Source: Flavobacterium sp.
GTDB taxonomy: Bacteria > Bacteroidota > Bacteroidia > Flavobacteriales > Flavobacteriaceae
Length of the DNA stretch: 64,000 bases
Reading direction: 5' to 3'
Assembly: GCF_004211145.1 (NCBI RefSeq)
Contig: NZ_SEBS01000015.1
Location: 27,760-91,759 of the forward strand
In this document: positions 10,466-55,538 of the stretch, in pieces
Layout of the letters: each line of letters opens with the position of its first letter
How positions within the stretch are numbered: position 1 is the stretch's first letter
The notes under the pieces: generated by a model
Told to the model about the DNA's origin: nothing
The model's input: only the letters and a program-made list of their open reading frames with translations
Databases searched by the model: none
Translations under genes and position numbers: made by a program

Positions 10466-10521
10466 GCCGCGAACTCGCGAATTTCAATCTGATTGCACAG
10501 ACGTATTCGCGACTTCGCGGC
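10466..10521. repeat. Inverted-repeat hairpin (GCCGCGAAnTCGCGAAT family) between convergent genes
   Basis: 10466-10482 (GCCGCGAACTCGCGAAT) pairs with 10505-10521 (ATTCGCGACTTCGCGGC). 16 of 17 positions pair; loop is 22 nt. Related copies occur at 24739-24807 and 57637-57706. Confidence 0.7.
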
Positions 10522-10549: not shown

Positions 10550-11947
10550 TTACTTCAAACTCCCGACCATATCCTCAGGTTTTACCCAAGCGTCAAAGTC
10601 TTCTGGGGTAACGTATCCCAAACGCACGGCTTCGTCTTTTAGCGTCGTTCCGTTTTTGTGTGCGGTCTGCGCGATCTCGGCCGATTTGTAATACCCGATT
10701 TTAGTATTCAACGCGGTTACCAACATTAGCGAATTGTCAACCAGTTCCTTGATGCGTTTGTGGTTCGGTTCGATGCCTTGCGCGCAATGTTCGTCGAACG
10801 AGACACAGGCATCGCCAAGCAAGCGCGCCGACAGCAGGAAATTCGCGGCCATGACCGGTTTGAAAACATTGAGTTCGTAATGGCCTTGCATGCCGCCGAC
10901 CGAGATCGCGACGTCGTTCCCCATGACCTGGGCGCAAACCATCGTGAGCGCTTCACATTGCGTCGGGTTTACTTTTCCGGGCATGATCGACGATCCGGGC
11001 TCGTTCTCGGGAATTAATATCTCGCCGATTCCGGAACGCGGACCTGAGGCCAACATGCGGATATCGTTCGCGATCTTGTTCAACGAAACCGCCAATTGTT
11101 TCAAAGCGCCGTGCGATTCCACGATAGCGTCGTGAGAGGCGAGGGCTTCGAATTTGTTCGGGGCCGTTACGAATGAATGACCTGTGAATTTCGCGATGTA
11201 TTCTGCGACTTTGACGTCGTAGCCGGCAGGAGTATTCAATCCTGTTCCGACTGCGGTTCCGCCAAGCGCGACTTCTGAAAGATGCGCCAATGTATTCTTG
11301 ACCGCTTTTATGCCGTAGTTCAATTGGGCGACGTAACCTGAAAGTTCCTGCCCGAGCGTAAGCGGCGTCGCGTCCATCAGGTGCGTGCGGCCGATTTTCA
11401 CGACATTCATGAATTCGGTTGATTTCGCCTGGAGCGTATCGCGTAGTTTTTCGACTCCCGGAAGCGTGACTTCGACGACCGCTTTGTAGGCCGCGATGTG
11501 CATTCCCGTTGGGAAAGTATCGTTAGACGATTGGGATTTGTTCACGTCGTCGTTGGCTTTCACGACCGCTTCACCTTCACCGATCTTGAATCCCGCGAGC
11601 ACCTGGGCGCGGTTCGCGATGACTTCGTTCACGTTCATGTTCGACTGCGTTCCTGAACCAGTCTGCCAGATGACAAGCGGGAATTCCGATTCGAGTTTGC
11701 CTGCGAGGATTTCGTCGCACACGGCTGCGATCGCATCGCGTTTCTCCACCGACAAAACGCCGAGGTCGTGATTCGCGTACGCTGCGGCTTTCTTAAGATA
11801 AGCGAAACCTTCTACGATTTCCTTCGGCATCGAGCCTGACGGACCGATCTTGAAGTTGTTGCGTGAACGTTCGGTTTGGGCGCCCCAGTATTTGTCGGCC
11901 GGGACTTTTACTTCGCCCATGGTGTCTTTTTCTATTCGGTATTCCAT
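10550..11947 (-). CDS. fumC: Class II fumarate hydratase
   Basis: 465 aa with [16 protein letters not shown] signature and [26 protein letters not shown]-terminus. Confidence 0.97.
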
Positions 11948-12330
11948 TGGTTGTTTAACTGTTTAATGGTTTAACTGTTTATTTGTTGATTCGTTGATTT
12001 TATTTCGCTGCGCTCCATACTGTTCGGCTGCGCCTCGGGTGTTGATTTGATTTATTGCCTCCCGTCGATGTGGTCGTTACTAATTGGGCTTCCGATCTTC
12101 CAAACCAAAAACTTCCGAACTTCCCATAGCAGCCCCGATTGAAGCGGCAGCCTTTTGCGGCGGAAGCGCATTTTTTGCCGACGTTTGGCGGCGACCGAAG
12201 GAAGCCCGTCAAACAAGTGCAAAAAAGCGATTCTGCTCAAAAGCTACAGCGGAAAGCGGGAAATGCTGCCCAAAAAAATAGCGTCCCAAAAGTACGCATA
12301 AATGTTTTTTTATAAAAATGTATTCGCCAG

Positions 12331-12613: not shown

Positions 12614-12814
12614 GTTGGCTGTAAGTGAGTGTTTGTTTGCACTTTTAAAGTTTACTACATGGTTTTTTTTTACAGTTAAGATAGTTGAGAAAGTTAAGCG
12701 CTCCTGCACAGTAAACGTATCGGTTCGGTTTTGATTTGAAAAATCATGACTATTTATAAGAAGTCAGAAGTTCAGTATTCCGCACGCCCAAAACCTTTCA
12801 ATTGAATTAATGGT

Positions 12815-17866: not shown

Positions 17867-17881
17867 TATAATTTTTTCTGA

Positions 17882-18176
17882 ACAGTTGAGATAGTTTAGA
17901 AAAGTTAAGCGATTTGGGTTTACTGTTTAGGTTTTTTGGTTAAAAGAAATATGGTTTTTATTATTGTGAATGTTGAGAGCATTGAGTTCATTAAGGAAAT
18001 CTAACCTTAACAACGCAATGCTCTCAATAATTTAAACTCTTTAGCAGACAGAATTAATCTAAAATTTCAAAATTATTGATTCTACATTTTGAAATAAAAA
18101 CAACTGAACGTTTAATGCGAAAGATTGGTAACGTTAAAAGTTTCTGATCTTAACTTTTCTCAACTATCTTAATTGT
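17882..18176. repeat. Nested inverted repeats in convergent intergenic region (CAGTTGAGATAGTT..AAGTTAAG family)
   Basis: The outer arms are 17882-17911 (ACAGTTGAGATAGTTTAGAAAAGTTAAGCG) and 18149-18176 (reverse complement ACAATTAAGATAGTTGAGAAAAGTTAAG). An inner perfect 12-bp stem joins TTGAGAGCATTG (17973-17984) to CAATGCTCTCAA (18016-18027), with TTAAGG/CCTTAA inside it. A third hairpin pairs ATTTCAAAAT (18064-18073) with ATTTTGAAAT (18086-18095). Confidence 0.7.
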
Positions 18177-18214
18177 TTAAAAATTTCAGGGTAGGATCAA
18201 AACTCAATGATAAA

Positions 18215-20883: not shown

Positions 20884-20977
20884 AGTCGTGATTTTAGAAC
20901 TACGAATTTATTGAATTGAGGTTTAAGTTGGATGTAAATTTGACCAATGTATTTTTTAACTGTTGTTGTTTTTTTCA

Positions 20978-21168
20978 ACAATTAAGGTAGTTAAGGTTAG
21001 TTAAGACGGGAACGGGAATTTTGATGTTCTCAATTTATTTGAACCATTAAGATCATTAAGTTCATTAAGATTATTGAGGTCAGTAAATTGAGACTGGGAC
21101 TTTAATCGTTGTCATTGTACTTTAATTTCGGCCGATTTCTCAATACTCAAATCTCAATACTCAAATCT
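20978..21168. repeat. Word arrays (TTAAG/TTGAG words, then CTCAATACTCAAAT words) downstream of carboxyltransferase gene
   Basis: 20978-21008 is ACAATTAAGGTAGTTAAGGTTAGTTAAGACG. 21046-21100 carries CATTAAGATCATTAAGTTCATTAAGATTATTGAGG. 21139-21168 is CTCAATACTCAAATCTCAATACTCAAATCT and abuts the stop at 21175. The 18-nt string at 21146-21163 is identical to 25819-25836. Confidence 0.55.
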
Positions 21169-21174
21169 AAAGAC

Positions 21175-22803
21175 TCAAACCTGAATCACGCCCAAATTAA
21201 ACTTTTTCTCAATAGGGGCGTGGTTCGCCGCCTCAATTCCCATTGAAATCCACGTTCTCGTTTCAAGCGGATCAATGATTGCGTCGGTCCAAAGACGAGC
21301 CGCGGCGTAGTAAGGCGAAACCTGCTCGTCGTAACGCGCCTTTATCTTGTTGAAAAGTTCGGCTTCCTTGGCTTCGTCGACCGTTTCGCCTTTGGCTTTG
21401 AGCGACGAGGCTTCGATCTGCATCAGCACTTTCGCGGCCTGGGTTCCGCCCATGACGGCGAGTTCGGCGCTTGGCCATGCAAAGATCAATCTCGGGTCGT
21501 ATGCTTTTCCACACATGGCGTAGTTTCCGGCTCCATAGGAATTCCCGACGATTACCGTGAATTTCGGCACGACCGAATTCGAGACCGCATTCACCATTTT
21601 CGCTCCGTCTTTGATGATGCCACCGTGTTCCGACTTCGATCCGACCATAAATCCGGTCACGTCCTGAACGAAAACGAGCGGGATTTTCTTCTGGTTGCAA
21701 TTCGCGATGAAACGCGTGGCCTTGTCGGCCGAATCCGAATAGATCACGCCTCCGAACTGCATTTCGCCCTTCTTCGATTTCACGACCTTGCGTTGGTTCG
21801 CAACGATTCCGACCGCCCAACCGTCGATTCTCGCGTAACCCGTAATCAGCGTTTGGCCATAACCGGCCTTGTATTCGTCGAATTCCGAATTGTCGACGAG
21901 ACGTTTTATGATTTCCATCATATCGTATTGTTCGGCGCGCGACTTGGGCAAAATCCCGTAAATGTCTTTTTCGTCCGACAACGGCTTCTGCGGCTTCTCG
22001 CGATTGAATCCGGCCTTGTCGAAATCTCCGATCTTCGAGACGATGTTCTTTATGGTGTCGAGCGCGTCCTTGTCGTCTTTGGCCTTGTAGTCGGTCACGC
22101 CCGAAATCTCGCAATGCGTCGTTGCGCCTCCAAGCGTTTCGTTGTCGATGGTTTCCCCGATGGCGGCCTTTACCAAATAACTTCCGGCGAGGAAAATGCT
22201 TCCGGTTTTATCGACTATGAGCGCTTCATCGGACATGATCGGCAAATATGCTCCGCCCGCGACGCAACTTCCCATGACGGCCGCAATTTGCGTGATGCCG
22301 AGGCTGCTCATGATGGCGTTGTTGCGGAATATGCGCCCGAAATGCTCTTTATCGGGAAAGATTTCGTCCTGCATCGGTAAGTACACGCCCGCGCTGTCGA
22401 CGAGGTAAATGATCGGCAGACGGTTTTCCATCGCAATTTCCTGTGCCCGAAGATTCTTCTTGCCCGTAATCGGAAACCAGGCGCCGGCTTTCACGGTCGC
22501 GTCATTTGCCACGACCATGCATTGCTTGCCGCGTATGTAACCGATTTTTACGACGACTCCGCCTGATGGGCAACCTCCGTGTTCGGCATACATTCCGTCG
22601 CCCGTAAAAGCACCGATTTCTATGCTCGAGGCTTTTTCGTCGAGCAGGTAATCGATTCGTTCGCGAGCCGTCATCTTGCCCTCGGCATGCAGTTTCTCAA
22701 TGCGTTTTGCGCCACCGCCCAATTTCACGGTCGCGAATTTTTGTTTTAGGGAAGAAAGTAAAAGCTTGTTGTGGTCTTCGTTCTGGTTGAAGTTCAAGTC
22801 CAT
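21175..22803 (-). CDS. Acyl-CoA carboxylase carboxyltransferase (beta) subunit (methylcrotonyl-/propionyl-CoA carboxylase type)
   Basis: 542 aa with two crotonase-like carboxyltransferase halves. Motifs GGGAKRIEKLHAEGKMTARERI, ANDATVKAGAW and GNSYGAGNYAMCG. Confidence 0.92.
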   Translation of the reverse strand: MDLNFNQNEDHNKLLLSSLKQKFATVKLGGGAKRIEKLHAEGKMTARERIDYLLDEKASSIEIGAFTGDGMYAEHGGCPSGGVVVKIGYIRGKQCMVVANDATVKAGAWFPITGKKNLRAQEIAMENRLPIIYLVDSAGVYLPMQDEIFPDKEHFGRIFRNNAIMSSLGITQIAAVMGSCVAGGAYLPIMSDEALIVDKTGSIFLAGSYLVKAAIGETIDNETLGGATTHCEISGVTDYKAKDDKDALDTIKNIVSKIGDFDKAGFNREKPQKPLSDEKDIYGILPKSRAEQYDMMEIIKRLVDNSEFDEYKAGYGQTLITGYARIDGWAVGIVANQRKVVKSKKGEMQFGGVIYSDSADKATRFIANCNQKKIPLVFVQDVTGFMVGSKSEHGGIIKDGAKMVNAVSNSVVPKFTVIVGNSYGAGNYAMCGKAYDPRLIFAWPSAELAVMGGTQAAKVLMQIEASSLKAKGETVDEAKEAELFNKIKARYDEQVSPYYAAARLWTDAIIDPLETRTWISMGIEAANHAPIEKKFNLGVIQV

Positions 22804-24738: not shown

Positions 24739-24807
24739 GGCCGCGAATTCGCGAATTTCATAAGATTCCATCTGAGATTATCCATTTGAGATTAGCGAAT
24801 TCACGGC
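24739..24807. repeat. Inverted-repeat hairpin (GCCGCGAATTCGCGAAT family)
   Basis: 24740-24756 (GCCGCGAATTCGCGAAT) pairs with 24791-24807 (ATTAGCGAATTCACGGC). 15 of 17 positions pair; loop is 34 nt and contains GAGATTA words. It starts 7 nt after the pitA stop and precedes the canonical terminator. Confidence 0.6.
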
Positions 24808-25784: not shown

Positions 25785-25837
25785 TGAGATTTGAGTCTTG
25801 GGTCTTGAGGTTGAGGCGCTCAAATCTCAATACTCAC
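25785..25837. repeat. Inverted-repeat hairpin (GAGATTTGAG / CTCAAATCTC words) between convergent genes
   Basis: GAGATTTGAG (25787-25796) pairs perfectly with CTCAAATCTC (25820-25829). The loop is 23 nt of TCTTGGGTCTTGAGGTTGAGG words. The right arm overlaps the last codons and stop of the DUF1697 gene. Confidence 0.7.
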
Positions 25838-29155: not shown

Positions 29156-29499
29156 TTGCTGTAGGCTGTAGGCTTTAGGCTTTAAGCTTTAAGCAGTAGG
29201 CTTCTTTTAAGGTAAGGACGACGAGTTTGTTCAGATTGAAGTTAGTCGTTACGTGATTTGCTTTAGGCTGTATGCTTTACGCAATAGGCTTTCGTGTAAA
29301 GTGCGGATGACGATTTCGGTTAATATCTGACAATCTTTTATAAATAGAAAAAGCGGTTTTCAACAATTGAGAACCGCTTTTATTTTTAGTGTATCAGTTT
29401 GACATTTCGAATTCGAAACTGCGTCCAAGTTATTTGGAACCGTTGTTGAATCTAGGATACGTAAGGCCTAAAGCTTACAGCATAAAGCCTAAAGCAAAA
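29156..29499. repeat. TAGGCT/TAAGCT word arrays as inverted pair flanking a bidirectional terminator
   Basis: 29156-29204 reads TTGCTGTAGGCTGTAGGCTTTAGGCTTTAAGCTTTAAGCAGTAGGCTTC. 29257-29292 (TTTGCTTTAGGCTGTATGCTTTACGCAATAGGCTTT) is inverted against 29462-29498; the perfect 13-nt core is 29257-29269 against 29486-29498. The arrays begin directly after the stops of both convergent genes. Confidence 0.65.
29348..29387. terminator. Bidirectional Rho-independent terminator
   Basis: AAAGCGGTTTTC (29350-29361) pairs with GAGAACCGCTTT (29369-29380), including one G-U pair. Loop is AACAATT. An A-run lies upstream and a T-run downstream. Confidence 0.8.
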
Positions 29500-36114: not shown

Positions 36115-37155
36115 ATGAAAGAAGAAATAAAAGCTTACAATAATGTCCTGGAATTAATCGGAAACACGCCTTTGATAAGGTTAAACCGTGTCACCGAAAA
36201 CCTCAAAGGAAATTTCTACGCCAAAGTAGAAGCTTTCAATCCGGGACACTCCACAAAAGACAGGATTGCCCTTTATATTATTGAAGAAGCTGAGAAAAAA
36301 GGAATTCTTTCACCAGGCGACACGATCATCGAGACGACTTCGGGTAACACCGGCTTCAGTCTCGCCATGGTCAGCATCATTAAAGGTTACAGCTGCGTTT
36401 TGGCCGTAAGTTCAAAATCTTCGAGAGATAAGATCGACATGCTCCGTTCAATGGGAGCGAAAGTATATGTTTGCCCGGCCCATGTTTCAGCCGACGACGA
36501 ACGTTCTTATTACAATGTTGCCAAGAGATTGCATGAAGAAATCAAAGGTTCGGTTTACATCAACCAATATTTCAACCAGCTTAACATCGACGCACATTAC
36601 AAGACTACAGGTCCTGAAATCTGGGAACAGACGGGCGGCCAAATCACGCATCTCATCGCGTGTAGCGGAACCGGTGGAACTATTTCAGGTGCCGCGAAAT
36701 TCCTAAAAGAGAAAAATCCGAACATCCGGATCCTGGGTGTCGACGCTTTCGGGTCGGTGCTTAAGAAATATCATGAAACCAAAGAATTCGACAACGACGA
36801 GATTTATCCGTACCGAATTGAAGGTCTCGGTAAAAACCTGATTCCATCGGCTACCGATTTCGATTTGATCGACAAGTTCATCAAGGTTACTGATGAAGCC
36901 AGCGCGCACGTGACACGTGAAATCGCCAAGAAAGAAGGTTTGTTCGTAGGTTATACATCGGGCGCAGTCCTGCAAGCGATCAAGCAATATGCCGAGGAAG
37001 GCGAATTCGACGAGAACAGCAATGTCGTCGCGATATTCCCTGACCACGGTTCGCGTTACATGAGCAAGGTGTTCAGCGATGAATGGATGAACGAGCAAGG
37101 TTTCTTTGACAGCGTGAATGCTGAGGAAGCTCAGAAGGTTGAATTTATTAAGTAA
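36115..37155 (+). CDS. PLP-dependent cysteine synthase / cystathionine beta-synthase family enzyme
   Basis: [11 protein letters not shown]-lysine context [21 protein letters not shown] and GTGGTISG motifs. 346 aa. A TAATTTTG -7-like box lies at 36051-36058. Confidence 0.85.
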
Positions 37156-37205
37156 TTGACAGTTGATAATTGACAATTGATAATTGACAATTGGTTTGAC
37201 AATAG
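37156..37205. repeat. TTGACAATTGATAA word array immediately after stop codon (left arm)
   Basis: TTGACAGTTGATAATTGACAATTGATAATTGACAATTGGTTTGACAAT starts at the first base after the TAA stop. 37165-37180 is the perfect reverse complement of 37857-37872. Confidence 0.8.
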
Positions 37206-37208
37206 TAG

Positions 37209-37235
37209 AACTCCGGATTATGTCCGGAGTTTTTT
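37209..37235 (+). terminator. Rho-independent terminator
   Basis: AACTCCGGA (37209-37217) pairs with TCCGGAGTT (37223-37231). Loop is TTATG, followed by a T-run. Confidence 0.85.
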
Positions 37236-37382
37236 CGTTTATAGGCTTTTTAGGATTTTGTGGGCGGGATTTATGTCTTTCATAGATTTGGGGCGGTCGA
37301 ATTTGAAATACATATAATTGGTGATGACTTTAGTCCGGACGTCGCGGGCATTTTTCGGATTGCTCCAACAATCGATTAAGTA

Positions 37383-37690
37383 TCATCGAATCATGAAAAT
37401 GCGTGACTCCATGTGTTTCATATCCCGAAATTTCGATGTTTTCTTTGCATCCGACCAAGTCATGGAATTTATACACGACTGTTTCGGGAGCGAATATGTC
37501 ATGTCCAAATCACCATCGAAGCATTTCATCACTATAGTGGATTTACCGCTAAACGGACCGCGCCCGATCTTTGCCGAGCTCAACAACCTGAAAACACACG
37601 GGCCTTTTTTGCAGCTGCTGTGTAGCGACTCGATCTCGCTTTCGGGAATTATCCGATGTCGATCTTCGTCCATCGCAAGCCAATTCCCGA
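37383..37690 (-). pseudogene. Possible C-terminal remnant of an alpha/beta-hydrolase (S9/dienelactone-hydrolase-like) gene
   Basis: Part of minus ORF 37383-37853. ..DEDRHRIIPESEIESLHSSCKKGPCVFRLL..GRGPFSG.. loosely resembles the G.D..VP...S..L..ALKK.G.PVE......GHGF C-terminal block. The listed ORF start overlaps the yebC terminator, so the full ORF is unlikely to be a gene. Confidence 0.25.
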
Positions 37691-37789
37691 TTCGGCTTGT
37701 TCGAATGTAACACGGAAGCGACCAATGCCAATGCAAGCATGAACCCTCCAAAAAGTTAACCCGCATCCAAAAAATTGATTTATCCGCAT

Positions 37790-37816
37790 AAAAAAAAGCC
37801 CCGGAATCCCAAGGCT
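37790..37816 (-). terminator. Strand-specific Rho-independent terminator of yebC-family gene
   Basis: The minus-strand RNA GCCUUGG-GAUU-CCGGGGC forms a 7-bp stem with two G-U pairs, followed by U8 (forward A-run 37790-37797). Confidence 0.65.
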
Positions 37817-37836
37817 CATATCTACTCCAAAAGCAA

Positions 37837-37885
37837 CAATTGTCAATTGTCAATCGTCAATTGTCAATTATCCATTGTCAATTAC
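37837..37885. repeat. TTGACAATTG word array (right arm, inverted) abutting yebC stop
   Basis: CAATTGTCAATTGTCAATCGTCAATTGTCAATTATCCATTGTCAATTACC ends one base before the stop at 37886-37888. In the gene's own sense it reads GTAATTGACAATGGATAATTGACAATTGACGATTGACAATTG. Confidence 0.8.
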
Positions 37886-38602
37886 CTACTCACTTTCTTC
37901 CATAGTATGATACACGTTCATCACGTCATCATCTTCCTCAATCTTCTCAAGTAGTTTTTCCACGTCGGCGACCTGAGCCTCCGTCAACGCTTTCGTAACC
38001 TGCGGAATTCTCTCGAAGCCCGACGACAGGATGTCGATGCCGCGGTTCTCCAATTCCTTTTGGATCGATCCGAAACTTCCGAAAGGCGCATAGATCAAGA
38101 TGCCGTCTTCATCCTCAAAAACCTCTTCGGCCCCGAAATCGATGAGTTCCAATTCCAATTCCTCAGGATCAAGATTTCCTTTTGCGATGCGGAAATTGCA
38201 TGTATGATCGAACATGAACTCGACAGAACCTTGCGTTCCCATCGTGCCGTTGCATTTGTTGAAATAGCTGCGGATGTTCGCGACCGTGCGGTTGTTGTTG
38301 TCGGTAGCCGTTTCGATTAGTATCGCTATCCCGTGAGGCGCGTAGCCTTCGAACAACGCTTCCTTGTAGTTCGCGGTGTCCTTGTCGGTCGCTTTCTTTA
38401 TCGCGCGTTCAACGTTTTCCTTTGGCATATTCGCCGACTTGGCGTTTTGGATAACGGCACGCAAACGGGCGTTGGCTTCCGGGTTAGGGCCGCCTTCTTT
38501 CACCGCCATGACGATGTCTTTACCGATTCTTGTGAACGCTTTGGCCATTGCCGCCCAACGTTTCATTTTTCTTCCTTTGCGGAATTCGAATGCTCTTCCC
38601 AT
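37886..38602 (-). CDS. yebC: YebC/PmpR-family DNA-binding transcriptional regulator
   Basis: MGRAFEFRKGRKMKRWAAMAKAFTRIGK N-terminus is diagnostic of the family. 238 aa. Confidence 0.93.
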   Translation of the reverse strand: MGRAFEFRKGRKMKRWAAMAKAFTRIGKDIVMAVKEGGPNPEANARLRAVIQNAKSANMPKENVERAIKKATDKDTANYKEALFEGYAPHGIAILIETATDNNNRTVANIRSYFNKCNGTMGTQGSVEFMFDHTCNFRIAKGNLDPEELELELIDFGAEEVFEDEDGILIYAPFGSFGSIQKELENRGIDILSSGFERIPQVTKALTEAQVADVEKLLEKIEEDDDVMNVYHTMEESE

Positions 38603-39946: not shown

Positions 39947-40463
39947 TATTCTCAGGATTTAGGTTTCGTGGCGCTAAAATAGACAAAAAAGAGGAATTGG
40001 CGAATTTGAAAACTAAGGAATCGGCGAATGTTTGAAACGTTTTCCGTCAATTTAATTTTAAGAAAATATGTGTGTTTCATGTAGCGCGTCATGACTGGAA
40101 TTCCTTACGGATAGCATCGCCCTTTCCCCGGGATCAAGGTCGGCATTTCCAAAATAAGCCAGTTGCAGGAAAAATACACATTTTGATAAATATTCTATTG
40201 GAGCTGTTCCGGCTGTCCGCTGCAATCTTTCTCGAAAAATGCGGGTTTGCGCACTTTGCGACGAGCTTCCGTCGGGCGCTGTCGCAAATCGGCAAACCCA
40301 TGCATTTTTCTTCAAAAGGATTTTCGCTGCCATCCGGGCTAGGGAAACATCCAAACGTCACGATCTGACATTTTAATCACGTGATGTCACTTTCATGTAT
40401 CGGTCAAATTGCGCTTTAAATTCGACCTTGAAAATATCTTCCTAAAAATAAACGACAAAAAAT

Positions 40464-46304: not shown

Positions 46305-46322
46305 TTGCGACTTGCTACGCTC

Positions 46323-46439
46323 TTAGACACGCTGCGCTTTGGACACGCTACGCTTTAGATGCTATAAATTATTATAATTTGGTTGTACGTTTCAAAAGTC
46401 TAAAGCCCGCGCGGCGCGTCCAAAGCGCAGCGTGTCTAA
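46323..46439. repeat. Long inverted repeat in thrA-thrB intercistronic spacer
   Basis: TTAGACACGCTGCGCTTTGGAC (46323-46344) is the perfect 22-nt reverse complement of 46418-46439. The arms are built from GACACGCTnCGCTTTnGA words and extend imperfectly to about 46316-46360 and 46398-46459, reaching the thrA stop. Confidence 0.8.
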
Positions 46440-46454
46440 AGCCATCGGCGTGTC

Positions 46455-52198: not shown

Positions 52199-52337
52199 AT
52201 TAGCGGTTTCGAAAATTAGCGGATTCGAAAATTAGCGAATTAGCGAATGGTTTTTTGAAAAAGATAACATTCTCGTTGCTTATCGAACAAATCCGCTATT
52301 CCGCTAATCTGCTAATTCGCTAATCCGCTAATCTAAT
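52199..52337. repeat. ATTAGCGGA/ATTAGCGAA word arrays as inverted pair after hutH
   Basis: The left arm (52199-52250) is ATTAGCGGTTTCGAAAATTAGCGGATTCGAAAATTAGCGAATTAGCGAATGG. The right arm (52291-52337) is ATCCGCTATTCCGCTAATCTGCTAATTCGCTAATCCGCTAATCTAAT. The perfect 14-bp core is 52231-52244 against 52311-52324. More CTAATCC words follow to 52386. Confidence 0.75.
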
Positions 52338-52383
52338 TCATAAAATTATTCTAATCATCCACTAATCCCAATCATCTAATCCC

Positions 52384-52391
52384 TAATTTTG
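52384..52391 (+). promoter_or_regulatory. Candidate -7 box (TAATTTTG) upstream of aguB
   Basis: TAATTTTG lies 19 nt upstream of the ATG at 52410. Confidence 0.3.
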
Positions 52392-53285: not shown

Positions 53286-53295
53286 ATAATTAGAC

Positions 53296-53388
53296 AATTT
53301 GGAAATTTGAAAATTTGAAAATGCCTAACCGATTATCCTTCGTGTTTTGAGAAAAATTTCCAAATTTCCAAATTTTCAAATTTCCAAA
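53296..53388. repeat. GGAAATTTGAAAAT word arrays forming a 20-bp perfect stem between aguB and aguA
   Basis: 53298-53317 (TTTGGAAATTTGAAAATTTG) is the perfect reverse complement of 53369-53388. The arms are tandem 9-10-nt words. The right arm ends 5 nt before the aguA ATG. Confidence 0.85.
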
Positions 53389-53393
53389 CTAAA

Positions 53394-54455
53394 ATGACTC
53401 CAAAACAACTAAACTTCCACTTCCCAGCAGAATTCGAAAAACAAACCGCGCTTTGGTTATCATGGCCGCACAAAGAAGCGTCGTGGCCCGGGAAGATCCA
53501 TACGATTTACAATTCGTATTGCGAATTTATCTTGCGCGTGGCATCTCACCAAAAAGTCTGCATAAATGTTGCGAATGAGGAAATGCGCGAGTTTGCGTTG
53601 CTCAGCATCTACAATTCGAATTACGCTAAAGTGGTGTCGAACCTTGAGGCGCTGCTCGACAACGTCAAATTTTATTTTCATCCGACGAACGATGCGTGGT
53701 GTCGCGATCACGGGCCGGCGTTTTTGGTGAACCGTGAAACGCGCGAGAAGGCGATCGTGGATTGGGGTTACAACGCTTGGGGCGACAAATATCCGCCGTA
53801 TGATCTCGACGATGTGATTCCGACCGAAATCGGGAAAGCGCTCGGACTTCCGGTTTTCAATCCCGGAATCGTCATGGAAGGCGGAAGCGTCGAATTCAAC
53901 GGAAAGGGAACGTTGCTTACCACGACGGCCTGTCTGCTCAATAAAAATCGCAATCCGCATTTATCGCAATCGGAAATCGAAAAATATCTGGTTGATTTCT
54001 ATGGCGTCGACAACATTCTTTGGCTCGGCGACGGCATTATCGGCGATGATACCGACGGACATATCGACGATATCACGCGCTTCGTGAACGAAGATACGGT
54101 CGTGACGGTCGTCGAGGAAAACAAGTCGGACGAGAACTACAAAATACTTCAGGAAAACCTCGAGACCCTGAAAACGTTGCGCCTTGAAACCGGAAAGCAA
54201 CTTAATATAATCGAACTTCCGATGCCGAAACCCGTGATTTGGGACGACCAAGTCCTTCCCGCATCGTACGCAAATTTCTACATCTCAAACGAAAATGTAA
54301 TTGTCCCGACATTCCGCGATGCCAACGACGACAAGGCGCTTTCGATCTTACAGGATTGTTTCAAAACCCGCAAGGTCGTCGGAATCGATTCGACTGATTT
54401 GATTTGGGGATTGGGAAGTTTTCATTGTTTGAGTCAACAGGAGCCGGCGGTTTAA
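53394..54455 (+). CDS. aguA: Agmatine deiminase
   Basis: FPAEFE.Q...WL.WPH, NDAWCRDHGP, DGHIDD and a C-terminal GSFHCLSQQ (catalytic Cys). Confidence 0.93.
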   Translation: MTPKQLNFHFPAEFEKQTALWLSWPHKEASWPGKIHTIYNSYCEFILRVASHQKVCINVANEEMREFALLSIYNSNYAKVVSNLEALLDNVKFYFHPTNDAWCRDHGPAFLVNRETREKAIVDWGYNAWGDKYPPYDLDDVIPTEIGKALGLPVFNPGIVMEGGSVEFNGKGTLLTTTACLLNKNRNPHLSQSEIEKYLVDFYGVDNILWLGDGIIGDDTDGHIDDITRFVNEDTVVTVVEENKSDENYKILQENLETLKTLRLETGKQLNIIELPMPKPVIWDDQVLPASYANFYISNENVIVPTFRDANDDKALSILQDCFKTRKVVGIDSTDLIWGLGSFHCLSQQEPAV

Positions 54456-54859
54456 TTCGATAATTGAGTCGAGTAGTTAATTAGAAAATTAGCGGATTAG
54501 CGAATGATACTTGTCTTCCGTGGAGATTTGTATTTTATATTGACGATTGTTGGAGCTTGTCTTCAAGGGGCGTTTGCATCTTCAATGGTAGATTGTCGGA
54601 ATCCATTGTCAAGGCAGCTTGCTTATTCAATTTGCATTTTGTTCCTATTTCTTTGAATGATATGTTCCGATTAGAAAAATTTCTATTTGTTTGATTGACT
54701 AAAATTTTATCGCGAACAGATATTGTTTTCCATAAATTCAAATTCCTTTTATAAGAGCATTTTGGCTCCCAACGCGATCAAAACATCCATCTGCGGGATT
54801 GCCCATCCGCTAATCCGCTAATTTTCTAATTAACTAATTATCTCAATCATCAAATTAAT
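54451..54859. repeat. MITE-like unit: ~55-nt terminal inverted repeats (29 bp perfect) around a ~300-bp core
   Basis: 54474-54502 (TAGTTAATTAGAAAATTAGCGGATTAGCG) is the perfect reverse complement of 54808-54836. The imperfect extension runs to 54451-54506 and 54804-54859, and the left arm overlaps the aguA stop. The arms share ATTAGCGGATTAGCGAAT words with the hutH-downstream arrays. The core holds only a doubtful TTG-start 68-codon ORF (54535-54741, minus). Confidence 0.6.
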
Positions 54860-54936
54860 TATCTAAACACTTTCCCAAATCCTTTCCATCCCAAAAATAA
54901 CGTGCGTAACTTACGGTAACGTTAAATCACACAACT

Positions 54937-55182
54937 ATGGAAACTAACAACAACCGCGATCGACACCAGGAAGATCCGCAAGAAAAGAAACAGAACGCAC
55001 GCGAACACGATGAAAAATACATCGGAGCCGATAAGGACGTTTCGGGAAATGATATCGCAGATGAAGGCCGCGACGAGCGTTCGCATCACCAGCAGTTCGG
55101 GAACCGAAAATACGAATCGTTTAAAAACCATTCATCGGCCGACGATCAACCCACGACGAATACCGGACCCGGAAATATGTAA
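54937..55182 (+). CDS. Small hydrophilic His/Asp/Glu-rich protein (paralog 1), unknown function
   Basis: 81 aa with no hydrophobic segment. METNNNRDRH.. N-terminus and ..YESFKNHSSADDQPTTNTGPGNM C-terminus shared with the downstream paralog. It has its own terminator. Confidence 0.6.
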   Translation: METNNNRDRHQEDPQEKKQNAREHDEKYIGADKDVSGNDIADEGRDERSHHQQFGNRKYESFKNHSSADDQPTTNTGPGNM

Positions 55183-55189
55183 CGAATTG

Positions 55190-55215
55190 AGCCTGTGATT
55201 TTCACGGGCTTTTTT
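55190..55215 (+). terminator. Rho-independent terminator
   Basis: AGCCTGTGA (55190-55198) pairs with TCACGGGCT (55202-55210), with one G-U pair. Loop is 3 nt, followed by a T-run. Confidence 0.8.
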
Positions 55216-55295: not shown

Positions 55296-55538
55296 ATGGA
55301 AACCAATCGCGACAATTTCGCGTCTGATCGGGATGATCAGCGTGAGAACGGCGAGGTTCTGAACAGTTTTCAGGAACCGGAAGGTATCAAAGATGGCGAT
55401 TTATCTGATCGCGACGAACATTCGCACGACAGGAAAAAACACCACGACCATCATCACATTGGGCGCTACAGGTCGTTTTCGAATTATTCGTCGGCGAGCG
55501 GCCAACCGAGCACGAATACGGGCCCGGGACTTTTTTAA
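55296..55538 (+). CDS. Small hydrophilic His/Asp-rich protein (paralog 2), unknown function
   Basis: 80 aa. METNRDNFASDRDD.. N-terminus, HSHDRKKHHDHHHIG His cluster, and C-terminal YRSFSNYSSASGQPSTNTGPGLF. It has its own terminator. Confidence 0.6.
   Translation: METNRDNFASDRDDQRENGEVLNSFQEPEGIKDGDLSDRDEHSHDRKKHHDHHHIGRYRSFSNYSSASGQPSTNTGPGLF

What the first reader, a model, noticed from the sequence alone, without database searches (positions are those of the whole stretch)
54451..54859. MITE-like element: 29-bp perfect (about 55-nt extended) terminal inverted repeats around a 300-bp core, sharing words with the hutH-downstream array
54474-54502 and 54808-54836 are perfect reverse complements, the longest in the window. 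The imperfect extension reaches 54451 and 54859, so the left arm overlaps the aguA stop codon. TTAATT lies near both outer ends (54453-54458 and 54854-54859). The arms contain ATTAGCGGATTAGCGAAT, the same word string as the array 2 kb upstream (52199-52337). The core (54507-54803) has only one doubtful TTG-start ORF (68 codons, minus strand). It could be a non-autonomous mobile element, a gene remnant trapped between two arms, or an extreme member of the word-array class.
Basis: partly seen in the sequence, partly recalled or inferred. Interest (0 to 1): 0.65.

Follow-up and report, generated by a model that had tools for sequence, protein, structure and literature searches.

The report
Word-array hairpin around orphan spacer
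The inverted repeat after aguA is real, but it is not a MITE: it is one of many gene-end hairpins in this Flavobacterium built from tandem 7-9-base "words", here enclosing a unique 297-base non-coding spacer. Its layout matches the stem-bracketed cassettes that hold small "intervening-sequence" genes in other Bacteroidota.

Summary
Arms 54452-54506 and 54804-54858 are 55 nt and 87% complementary, with a 29-nt perfect part, around a 297-nt core. The MITE reading is not supported:
- There is no significant target duplication.
- The core is single-copy in the source metagenome and absent from 160 related loci.
- It has no protein, RNA-family, plasmid or phage match.
- F. agri lacks the whole insert, and F. 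selenitireducens has a roughly 290-nt 8-mer array without a core at the same site.

The arms are tandem 8-nt words. Seven spacers between genes in the window carry such inverted word arrays, against 0 in 20 shuffles. The arms start 0-31 nt from stop codons. Short arm modules recur between loci.

In other Bacteroidota the same architecture brackets TIGR02436 (23S-IVS four-helix-bundle) or TIGR04256 (GxxExxY) genes. One locus keeps only the arms and a gene remnant.

Best reading: a locus-bound, IVS-like long-range stem made of inverted simple-sequence repeats around an orphan loop. It probably forms on aguA read-through RNA as an RNase III-type processing or insulating stem, but that function is inferred only. 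A neutral origin by slippage and template switching is the main rival. Interest is moderate.

The parts
54452..54506 (+). Left arm, 55 nt, made of 8-nt words (..TTAATTAG AAAATTAG CGGATTAG CGAATG). It overlaps the aguA stop codon (54453-54455). The perfect part is 54474-54502. It carries stop codons in all three frames.
54507..54803 (.). 297-nt core (the loop). It is AT-rich (GC 0.28-0.39), has no 7-8-nt periodicity, no excess RNA structure, no protein or RNA family match, and is single-copy in the source metagenome.
54804..54858 (+). Right arm, the reverse complement of the left arm (CATCCGCT AATCCGCT AATTTTCT AATTAACT AATTATCT..). The perfect part is 54808-54836. The outer words CTAATTATCTCAATCATC are shared with the F. 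selenitireducens array at the same site.
54804..54900 (+). G-depleted, C-rich tract (2 G and 26 C in 97 nt) running from the right arm to the sp1 promoter region.
53394..54455 (+). aguA (agmatine deiminase), the upstream gene. No canonical intrinsic terminator follows it.
54937..55182 (+). sp1, an 81-aa hydrophilic protein and the downstream gene. Its upstream block (about 54870-54936) aligns with F. agri and F. selenitireducens, and it has its own terminator at 55189-55211.
52199..52333 (+). Sister hairpin between hutH and aguB (arms 52199-52248 / 52290-52333, loop about 41 nt). It shares a 23-nt inner-arm module (AAAATTAGCGrATTAGCGAATG, 22 of 23 identical) with the element.
53288..53388 (+). 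Class member between aguB and aguA (AATTTGrA words, loop 31-37 nt). It occupies the site that holds TIGR02436 or TIGR04256 cassettes in other Bacteroidota.
37142..37895 (.). Class member with a 650-nt loop between convergent genes. Both arms overlap the two stop codons. By eye from the sequence, the loop holds two terminator-like hairpins, and no ORF in it matches a family.
29158..29498 (.). Class member (GCTkTAG 7-mers) between convergent genes. The arms lie 1-2 nt from both stop codons.
17875..18183 (.). Class member (AGTTnAGAn words, 239-nt loop). Its words recur at 12676-12692 and 20971-20992.
46314..46442 (.). Class member (16-nt period, 55-nt loop) between two minus-strand genes.

Best explanation
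The element is a locus-bound, single-copy long-range hairpin. Two 55-nt arms, each a tandem array of 8-nt words (an inverted pair of long simple-sequence repeats), start at the aguA stop codon and end about 78 nt before sp1. They enclose a 297-nt orphan, non-coding, AT-rich spacer.

Shown:
- It belongs to a class of at least seven such inverted word arrays in this window, in spacers between genes, with arms 0-31 nt from stop codons.
- The same class occurs in related Flavobacterium and other Bacteroidota.
- In other Bacteroidota the same architecture brackets small TIGR02436 (23S-IVS four-helix-bundle) or TIGR04256 (GxxExxY) genes, and it can decay to arms plus a gene remnant.

Inferred:
- The arrays grow and change by replication slippage. 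The two arms stay complementary through arm-to-arm templated copying (quasi-palindrome template switching) rather than through point compensations.
- On aguA read-through RNA the arms close a stem of about 55 bp. Like the stems of 23S rRNA intervening sequences, this stem would be an RNase III substrate. Cleavage would separate the aguB-aguA message from sp1 and discard the loop.
- The loop is most simply a cargo-less or fully decayed cassette.
For: Anatomy and significance.

Arm periodicity: period 8 in the arms.

Class and position at stop codons.

Module sharing between loci: the 23-nt inner module is shared with 52227-52249 and with L002:5897-5922. Other word families are shared among 12.7, 17.9 and 21.0 kb.

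Relatives: F. agri has a 121-nt spacer with no array. F. selenitireducens has about 290 nt of 8-mers at the same site, with homologous outer words on the right arm. Hairpins sit at the same hutH-aguB and aguB-aguA positions in relatives but use different words.

Cassettes elsewhere: 21 of 31 TIGR02436 gene hits are bracketed by significant word-array IRs. L098 and L101 carry TIGR04256 genes in strong IRs. L061 keeps the arms and only the 3' remnant of the gene. 15 loci have bare hairpins at that site.

Folding: the whole element folds at -120.8 kcal/mol, z = -6.7, with the arms as the closing stem.

Precedent: the Coxiella 23S IVS has a 28-bp terminal IR stem, tandem heptamers that vary in copy number, a decaying S23p ORF, and RNase III cleavage in the stem (PMC4990558).

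Other points: no canonical terminator follows aguA, while sp1 and sp2 each have one. The junction of core and right arm is kept, with 2 to 6 differences, in two wastewater samples.
Against: - There is no direct RNA evidence. Only assembled contigs were available, and none from the same-sample metatranscriptome covers the core.
- Arm mismatches in 21 oriented hairpins show no excess compatible with G:U pairing (13 against 12, with 37 of other kinds). RNA-level selection on pairing is therefore not demonstrated.
- The core has no detectable TIGR02436 or TIGR04256 remnant. The 80-aa frame scores -0.0 bits against the IVP profile, a score many shuffles exceed, so the 'decayed cassette' idea is by analogy only.
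- This window has six or more different word types, which argues against one cognate cassette family.
- F. agri does without any array at this site.
Confidence: 0.5

Rival explanations
1. Neutral mutational by-product. Intergenic simple-sequence arrays expand by slippage and are mirrored by template switching or gene conversion. The inverted pair and the spacer it encloses have no function.
For: Words turn over completely between species that are 81-83% identical in aguA. F. agri lacks the array at this site. F. selenitireducens has a runaway array of about 290 nt. Mismatches show no G:U bias. MacGregor 2015 (PMC4679880) reports heptamer arrays in Flavobacteriia that close relatives lack.
Against: The arms sit 0-31 nt from stop codons, and hairpins recur at the same gene junctions across species despite the word turnover. 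The arrangement is always inverted, never direct. The same architecture is kept around TIGR02436 genes whose divergence tracks that of aguA (Spearman 0.68).
Confidence: 0.3
2. Non-autonomous mobile element of the MITE, foldback or REPIN kind. The arms are transposition ends and the unit inserted after aguA.
For: It has long terminal inverted repeats. Arm modules of 17-27 nt recur at other loci in the window and in L002. Arm depth in the source metagenome is 5-15 times that of the core. The insert is absent from F. agri. Eukaryotic foldback elements also have terminal repeats made of tandem subrepeats (my own knowledge).
Against: The core is single-copy (depth 12.9, equal to its own contig). 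The loops of the loci that share the arm module are unrelated. The best flanking direct repeat is TTAATT, 6 nt; a repeat at least that long arises in 103 of 300 random placements, and TTAATT is part of the arms. F. selenitireducens has arrays but no core at the same site, so there is no clean boundary between filled and empty sites. No transposase was linked to it.
Confidence: 0.1
3. Inverton. The 29-bp perfect repeats are recombinase sites and the 297-bp core flips to switch sp1 expression.
For: The geometry, an IR around about 300 bp just upstream of a gene, is typical of Bacteroidota invertons (my own knowledge).
Against: Neither strand of the core holds a Bacteroidetes -7 box (TAnnTTTG). 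The conserved sp1 upstream block lies outside the arms. No strand-switch joints appear in the contigs, which is weak evidence. Sister members of the class have loops of 37-56 nt, or sit between convergent stop codons.
Confidence: 0.05
4. The stem encloses a small gene: the 50-aa hydrophobic peptide (54504-54656, +), the 68-80-aa minus-strand frame, or an sRNA. The arms would then act as a 5'-3' closing stem as in hok-type mRNAs.
For: The ORFs exist. The 50-aa ORF is hydrophobic and starts at the inner end of the left arm.
Against: The ORFs have no homologues. HMMER against 1.84 billion representatives gave two weak multi-stretch hits that I take to be compositional. The 50-aa ORF gave none. 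Pfam and NCBIfam gave none. Rfam found nothing. The core folds no better than shuffles (z = -0.01 and +1.35). T-rich DNA produces hydrophobic ORFs by chance.
Confidence: 0.05

Closest known systems
23S rRNA intervening sequences (IVS), e.g. Coxiella burnetii and Leptospira (PMC4990558)
   Same: Terminal inverted repeats form a long stem (28 bp in Coxiella, 55 bp here) around a loop of several hundred nt. Total size is similar (428 against 409 nt). Both have tandem 7-8-nt repeats of variable number in the stem region. The cargo ORF tends to decay. In other Bacteroidota the same word-array stems enclose the same gene family (TIGR02436/PF05635).
   Different: This element is not in an rRNA gene but between aguA and a small protein gene. 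No S23p/IVP ORF or remnant is detectable. RNase III cleavage is untested.
Long simple-sequence repeats (LSSR) and heptamer arrays in bacterial intergenic regions (Mrazek 2007 as cited in PMC4679880; MacGregor 2015)
   Same: Tandem 7-8-nt units, intergenic, present in Flavobacteriia, absent or different at the orthologous spacer of close relatives, with stop codons in all frames.
   Different: Here the arrays come as inverted pairs that enclose most or all of the spacer between the genes and form a long stem. The papers I read do not describe that arrangement.
REP / BIME / REPIN dispersed palindromes
   Same: Extragenic, hairpin-forming, sited at gene ends, with short modules shared among loci.
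   Different: No genome-wide family of near-identical units is seen. Words differ from locus to locus and the loops are unrelated. No RAYT was linked to it.
MITEs and eukaryotic foldback elements
   Same: Terminal inverted repeats around a non-coding core. Foldback terminal repeats are also built of tandem subrepeats.
   Different: No target duplication, a single-copy core, no cognate transposase, and no clean empty site.

Membership tests
MITE | Terminal inverted repeats | tested here: met
   55-nt arms at 87%, with 29 nt perfect.
MITE | Target-site duplication flanking the repeats | tested here: not met
   The best flanking direct repeat is TTAATT (6 nt), which lies inside the arms. A repeat of 6 nt or more arises in 103 of 300 random placements.
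MITE | Multiple copies with a homologous internal sequence | tested here: not met
   Core depth of 12.9 equals its own contig in the source metagenome. There is no other copy in the window or in 160 related loci, and none in plasmids or phages.
MITE | Precise empty site in relatives | tested here: inconclusive
   F. agri lacks the insert. F. selenitireducens has arrays without a core at the same site, so the boundaries are diffuse.
MITE | Autonomous partner transposon with matching ends | not tested
   The full genome was not available.
23S rRNA intervening sequence | Inserted in a 23S rRNA helix (25 or 45) | tested here: not met
   It lies between aguA and sp1, and the window has no rRNA.
23S rRNA intervening sequence | Terminal inverted repeats closing a long stem around the loop | tested here: met
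   (MFE -120.8 kcal/mol, z = -6.7).
23S rRNA intervening sequence | S23p / four-helix-bundle ORF in the loop (present in some IVSs) | tested here: not met
   No hit even at E of 50 or below. The 80-aa frame scores -0.0 bits against the profile.
23S rRNA intervening sequence | Excision by RNase III | not testable with these tools
   Only assembled contigs of RNA runs were available.
Long simple-sequence repeat (5-11-nt units) | Tandem short units longer than chance, intergenic, variable between relatives | tested here: met
   TRF rows and period-8 autocorrelation of 0.72. Differences between relatives.
REP / REPIN | Many near-identical copies across the genome | tested here: inconclusive
   Only a 23-nt module is shared (two loci in the window plus L002). 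Arm depth is 5-15 times core depth in the metagenome, but the organisms of origin are unknown.
REP / REPIN | Associated RAYT transposase | not tested
   The full genome was not available.
Inverton | Promoter inside the invertible segment | tested here: not met
   No TAnnTTTG on either strand of the core.
Inverton | Both orientations present in reads | not testable with these tools
   The runs are held as contigs only. No strand-switch joints are listed.

The most novel reading that the evidence does not exclude
The inverted word arrays may be the ends of an unrecognised family of cassettes that live in hairpin loops, in effect 'IVS elements outside rRNA'. In Bacteroidota these would carry TIGR02436 or TIGR04256 genes inside long stems built of short tandem words. 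The many bare gene-end hairpins, and this element with its orphan 297-nt loop, would be their cargo-less derivatives. That would link 23S intervening sequences, intergenic heptamer or octamer arrays, and two very common families of small genes of unknown function in one system.
Probability: 0.25. Interest if true: 0.75.

Novelty: new variant of a known kind. Interest (0 to 1): 0.45.

Why it matters
The element itself is a modest curiosity, but it points to a rule of genome architecture. In this Flavobacterium and across Bacteroidota, spacers at gene ends are bracketed by inverted arrays of short tandem words, and the same brackets enclose the two gene families that are otherwise known from 23S rRNA intervening sequences.

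If the stems are RNase III sites, they would be a widespread way of cutting and insulating operon transcripts. That would also give a testable context for TIGR02436 and TIGR04256 proteins, which are abundant and whose function, to my knowledge, is unknown.

It also warns annotators that long terminal inverted repeats in Bacteroidota intergenic DNA should not be called MITEs by default.

Tried and rejected
- **Core as a decayed four-helix-bundle gene.** By eye the minus-strand frame (NLNLWK..TNRNF..KQAA) seemed to match the N-terminal motif of the family. BLASTP gave E = 0.7 on a different, trivial alignment. The profile score was -0.0 bits, and many of the 2000 shuffles scored higher, up to 11.7. 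Rejected.
- **Core as a decayed word array.** There is no 7-8-nt periodicity (z between -1.4 and +0.1). Rejected.
- **Core homologues.** None were found by blastn or tblastx against the window and 160 loci, Pfam or NCBIfam, HMMER against 1.84 billion representatives, a word-indexed search of the 50-aa ORF, plasmids or phages, or Rfam.
- **Exact look-up of aguA.** The protein is not on record in the contig index.
- **Metagenome scan for closer relatives.** Nothing above 80% aa identity turned up, so population-level comparison was limited to two short wastewater contigs.
- **The 'skips 297' and 'skips 295' joints in the contigs.** I read these as other loci with the same words, not as an empty allele. 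The contig that spans the element has the same depth as its flanks (12.1 to 12.9).
- **G:U-bias test for RNA-level selection.** No signal.
- **Literature.** I found no paper describing inverted word-array brackets or GxxExxY cassettes.

Full report
**Observation**

The arms are 54452-54506 and 54804-54858, 55 nt each and 87% complementary, with 297 nt between them. A 29-nt part is perfect, 54474-54502 against 54808-54836. It is the longest inverted repeat in the window. With my own seed-and-extend finder the window has 8 inverted repeats of at least 24 nt at 7 loci, and each of 20 Markov shuffles has none. The left arm overlaps the aguA stop codon (54453-54455). NCBIfam confirms hutH, aguB and aguA. 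The word string shared with 52199-52337 is confirmed.

**Organism and relatives**

Two Flavo-1 RNA hits place the window in Flavobacteriia. The sequence is held by a phyllosphere metagenome run. An aguA-based scan of species-representative genomes gave these nearest relatives:
- Flavobacterium agri (L001), 92% aa identity in aguA.
- F. selenitireducens (L002), 91% aa identity in aguA.

Both keep the gene order hutH-aguB-aguA-sp1-sp2. The three are about equidistant, at 81-83% nucleotide identity in aguA. A metagenome scan found nothing closer than 80% aa.

**Tests of the MITE reading**

- *Copy number.* In the source metagenome the core (54516-54803) has depth 12.9, which is exactly the depth of the single contig that spans it. 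The arms reach 63-198 because other contigs carry similar words. The core has no match elsewhere in the window, in 160 related loci, in plasmids or in phages.
- *Target duplication.* The best flanking direct repeat is TTAATT, which lies inside the arms. A repeat of that length or longer arises in 103 of 300 random placements.
- *Empty site.* F. agri has a 121-nt aguA-sp1 spacer with no array. F. selenitireducens has about 290 nt of 8-mers at the same place, (ATTAGTCN/ATTAGATN)n followed by (ATTATCTN)n, and no unique core. Its outer right-hand words match the window's right arm (21 nt at 95%). The arrays therefore look ancestral to at least two of the three species. The core is private to the window lineage, and there is no clean boundary between a filled and an empty site.
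- *Core ORFs.* Pfam and NCBIfam give nothing. HMMER against 1.84 billion representatives gives two weak multi-stretch hits for the 80-aa frame, which I take to be compositional. The 50-aa plus-strand ORF has no homologue.
- *RNA.* Rfam finds nothing. The core folds no better than shuffles, with z = -0.01 and +1.35. It is AT-rich and shows no residual 7-8-nt periodicity.

The junction of core and right arm recurs with 2 and 6 differences in two wastewater samples, so the element is stable within the species.

**What it is**

The arms are tandem arrays of 8-nt words. The window holds at least seven loci with inverted pairs of such arrays, each with its own words of period 7-9 or 16:

| Left arm | Right arm | Loop (nt) |
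|---|---|---|
| 17875 | 18149 | 239 |
| 29158 and 29257 | 29463 | 170-264 |
| 37142 | 37844 | 650 |
| 46314 | 46409 | 55 |
| 52199 | 52290 | about 41 |
| 53288 | 53354 | 31-37 |
| 54452 | 54804 | 297 |

The arms begin 0-31 nt from stop codons. Between convergent genes the two arms abut the two stops, and by my reading of the sequence the ordinary terminators lie in the loop. In 8 of 10 arms that follow a stop codon, the words put further stop codons in all three frames.

Short modules are shared between loci:
- The 23-nt inner end of the left arm (AAAATTAGCGrATTAGCGAATG) recurs at 52227-52249 and at the aguB-aguA hairpin of F. selenitireducens.
- AGTTnAGA words link 12.7, 17.9 and 21.0 kb.

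Hairpins occupy the same hutH-aguB and aguB-aguA junctions in relatives but use different words. The present element is the member with the longest arms and a mid-sized loop.

**Link to cassette genes**

In Mucilaginibacter and other Bacteroidota, the aguB-aguA spacer holds a gene of about 117 codons between word-array arms. It is PF05635/TIGR02436, the '23S rRNA intervening sequence' four-helix-bundle protein.

- Across 31 hits to this gene, 21 have a bracketing inverted repeat that scores above every shuffle. The arms use two word families, CCATAG/CGATAG and AGTCCGnA.
- L098 and L101 instead carry a TIGR04256 GxxExxY gene inside strong word-array arms.
- L061 keeps the arms and only the 3' end of the four-helix-bundle gene.

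I surveyed the aguB-aguA junction in 140 loci (with the gene content of the long no-hit spacers read):

| State of the aguB-aguA spacer | Loci |
|---|---|
| Under 40 nt, no inverted repeat | 39 |
| 40-250 nt, no significant end repeat | 56 |
| 40-250 nt, bare hairpin (includes the window) | 15 |
| TIGR02436 gene present (includes the L061 remnant) | 26 |
| TIGR04256 gene present | 2 |
| Over 250 nt, no repeat and no cassette gene found | 2 |

Divergence of the four-helix-bundle gene tracks divergence of aguA (Spearman 0.68). At that site the cassette is therefore old and mostly inherited vertically.

The window itself has no trace of either gene family. A resemblance I saw by eye between the core's minus frame and the four-helix-bundle N-terminus failed the profile test.

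**How it probably works**

The whole element folds with the arms as a closing stem, at -120.8 kcal/mol and z = -6.7. No canonical intrinsic terminator follows aguA, whereas sp1 and sp2 each have one.

The best precedent is the 23S rRNA intervening sequence. In Coxiella, 28-bp terminal inverted repeats close a 428-nt element. The stem region holds tandem heptamers whose number varies between strains. The S23p ORF is decaying, and RNase III cuts in the stem (PMC4990558).

I therefore infer that read-through RNA from aguA forms a stem of about 55 bp. RNase III would cut that stem, which would separate the aguB-aguA message from sp1 and discard the loop.

This inference is untested. Only contigs of RNA runs were available, and none from the same-sample metatranscriptome covers the core. 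A 237-nt contig from a wastewater 'RNA-Seq' library spans the end of the core, the right arm and the start of sp1, but it may derive from DNA.

Arm mismatches in 21 oriented hairpins show no G:U-compatible excess: 13 against 12, with 37 of other kinds. That fits arms kept alike by slippage plus arm-to-arm templated copying better than by point compensation, and it leaves a purely neutral origin as the main rival.

**Other rivals**

- *Inverton.* This is unlikely. The core has no TAnnTTTG box on either strand, and the conserved sp1 upstream block lies outside the arms.
- *Enclosed small gene or sRNA.* There are no homologues and no excess structure.
- *REPIN-like mobility of the arms.* This stays possible at a low level, because modules are shared between loci, but the loops are unrelated and no whole-unit family is seen.

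**Comparison with what is known**

Intergenic heptamer arrays in Flavobacteriia that close relatives lack have been described (MacGregor 2015, PMC4679880, citing Mrazek 2007). The stem-loop architecture with tandem heptamers is known from 23S intervening sequences. I found no description of inverted word arrays that bracket the spacers between genes, or of TIGR02436 and TIGR04256 genes sitting inside such brackets outside rRNA.

**Verdict**

The feature is real and the MITE label is wrong. It is best filed as a new variant of known kinds: an inverted simple-sequence repeat with IVS-like stem architecture around an orphan loop. Interest in the element itself is moderate. The wider class it belongs to deserves follow-up.

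Noticed in passing
L028:5541-6024, L048:5523-6001, L067:5517-6002, L059:8270-8723 and about 20 further loci: TIGR02436/PF05635 ('23S rRNA intervening sequence', four-helix-bundle) genes sit between aguB and aguA in many Sphingobacteriia, Cytophagia and Chitinophagia. 21 of 31 hits are bracketed by inverted arrays of CCATAG-type or AGTCCG-type words. L059 has the same arrangement at a different locus.
   Followed up: yes
L098:2506-2934 and L101:2551-2931: At the same aguB-aguA site, two metagenome contigs carry a TIGR04256 GxxExxY gene instead, again inside strong word-array inverted repeats (words TTACACGGAG and ATTTACTTG/ATTTTAGG).
   Followed up: yes
L061:5847-5993: Word-array arms enclose an 83-nt loop that holds only the last codons of a four-helix-bundle gene. 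This is an intermediate between a cassette and a bare hairpin.
   Followed up: partly
L002:7062-7352: F. selenitireducens has about 290 nt of uninterrupted 8-mers, (ATTAGTCN/ATTAGATN)n then (ATTATCTN)n, between aguA and sp1. This is a very long simple-sequence array for a bacterium.
   Followed up: partly
window 54937-55182 and 55296-55538: Two tandem paralogous genes encode 80-81-aa, very hydrophilic proteins with a conserved C-terminus (SSAxDQPxTNTGPG). Each has its own canonical terminator. They have no Pfam or NCBIfam match and are conserved in F. agri and F. selenitireducens.
   Followed up: partly
window 12676-12692, 17881-17909/18149-18183, 20971-20992; also 21138-21179 with 25819-25836, and 24767-24794 with 10466-10486: Other word families (for example AGTTnAGAn) are shared between distant spacers of the window, so arm modules are dispersed and not only of local origin.
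   Followed up: partly
window 11947-11999: TTTAACTG/TTTAATGG words lie directly upstream of the start of the minus-strand gene 10550-11947. They recall the TAACTGA heptamer arrays described in Beggiatoaceae, Cyanobacteria and some Bacteroidetes. A partly complementary array lies at 12663-12698, and a Flavo-1 RNA and a small ORF lie between them.
   Followed up: no
window 12127-12267 (+) and 40202-40344 (-): Two Flavo-1 RNA (RF01705) matches lie above the gathering score. Each is about 142 nt against a 76-position model, so each carries a large insertion.
   Followed up: no
window 54804-54900: A 97-nt tract with 2 G and 26 C runs from the right arm to the sp1 promoter region. Similar G-poor CTAAT-rich words follow the right arm of the hutH-aguB hairpin (52334-52390). 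This composition is like that of a Rho-utilisation site.
   Followed up: partly
window 37194-37843: The 650-nt loop of the 37142/37844 inverted repeat holds, by my reading of the sequence, a terminator-like hairpin at each end and only implausible ORFs with no Pfam match. It may be another orphan core.
   Followed up: partly
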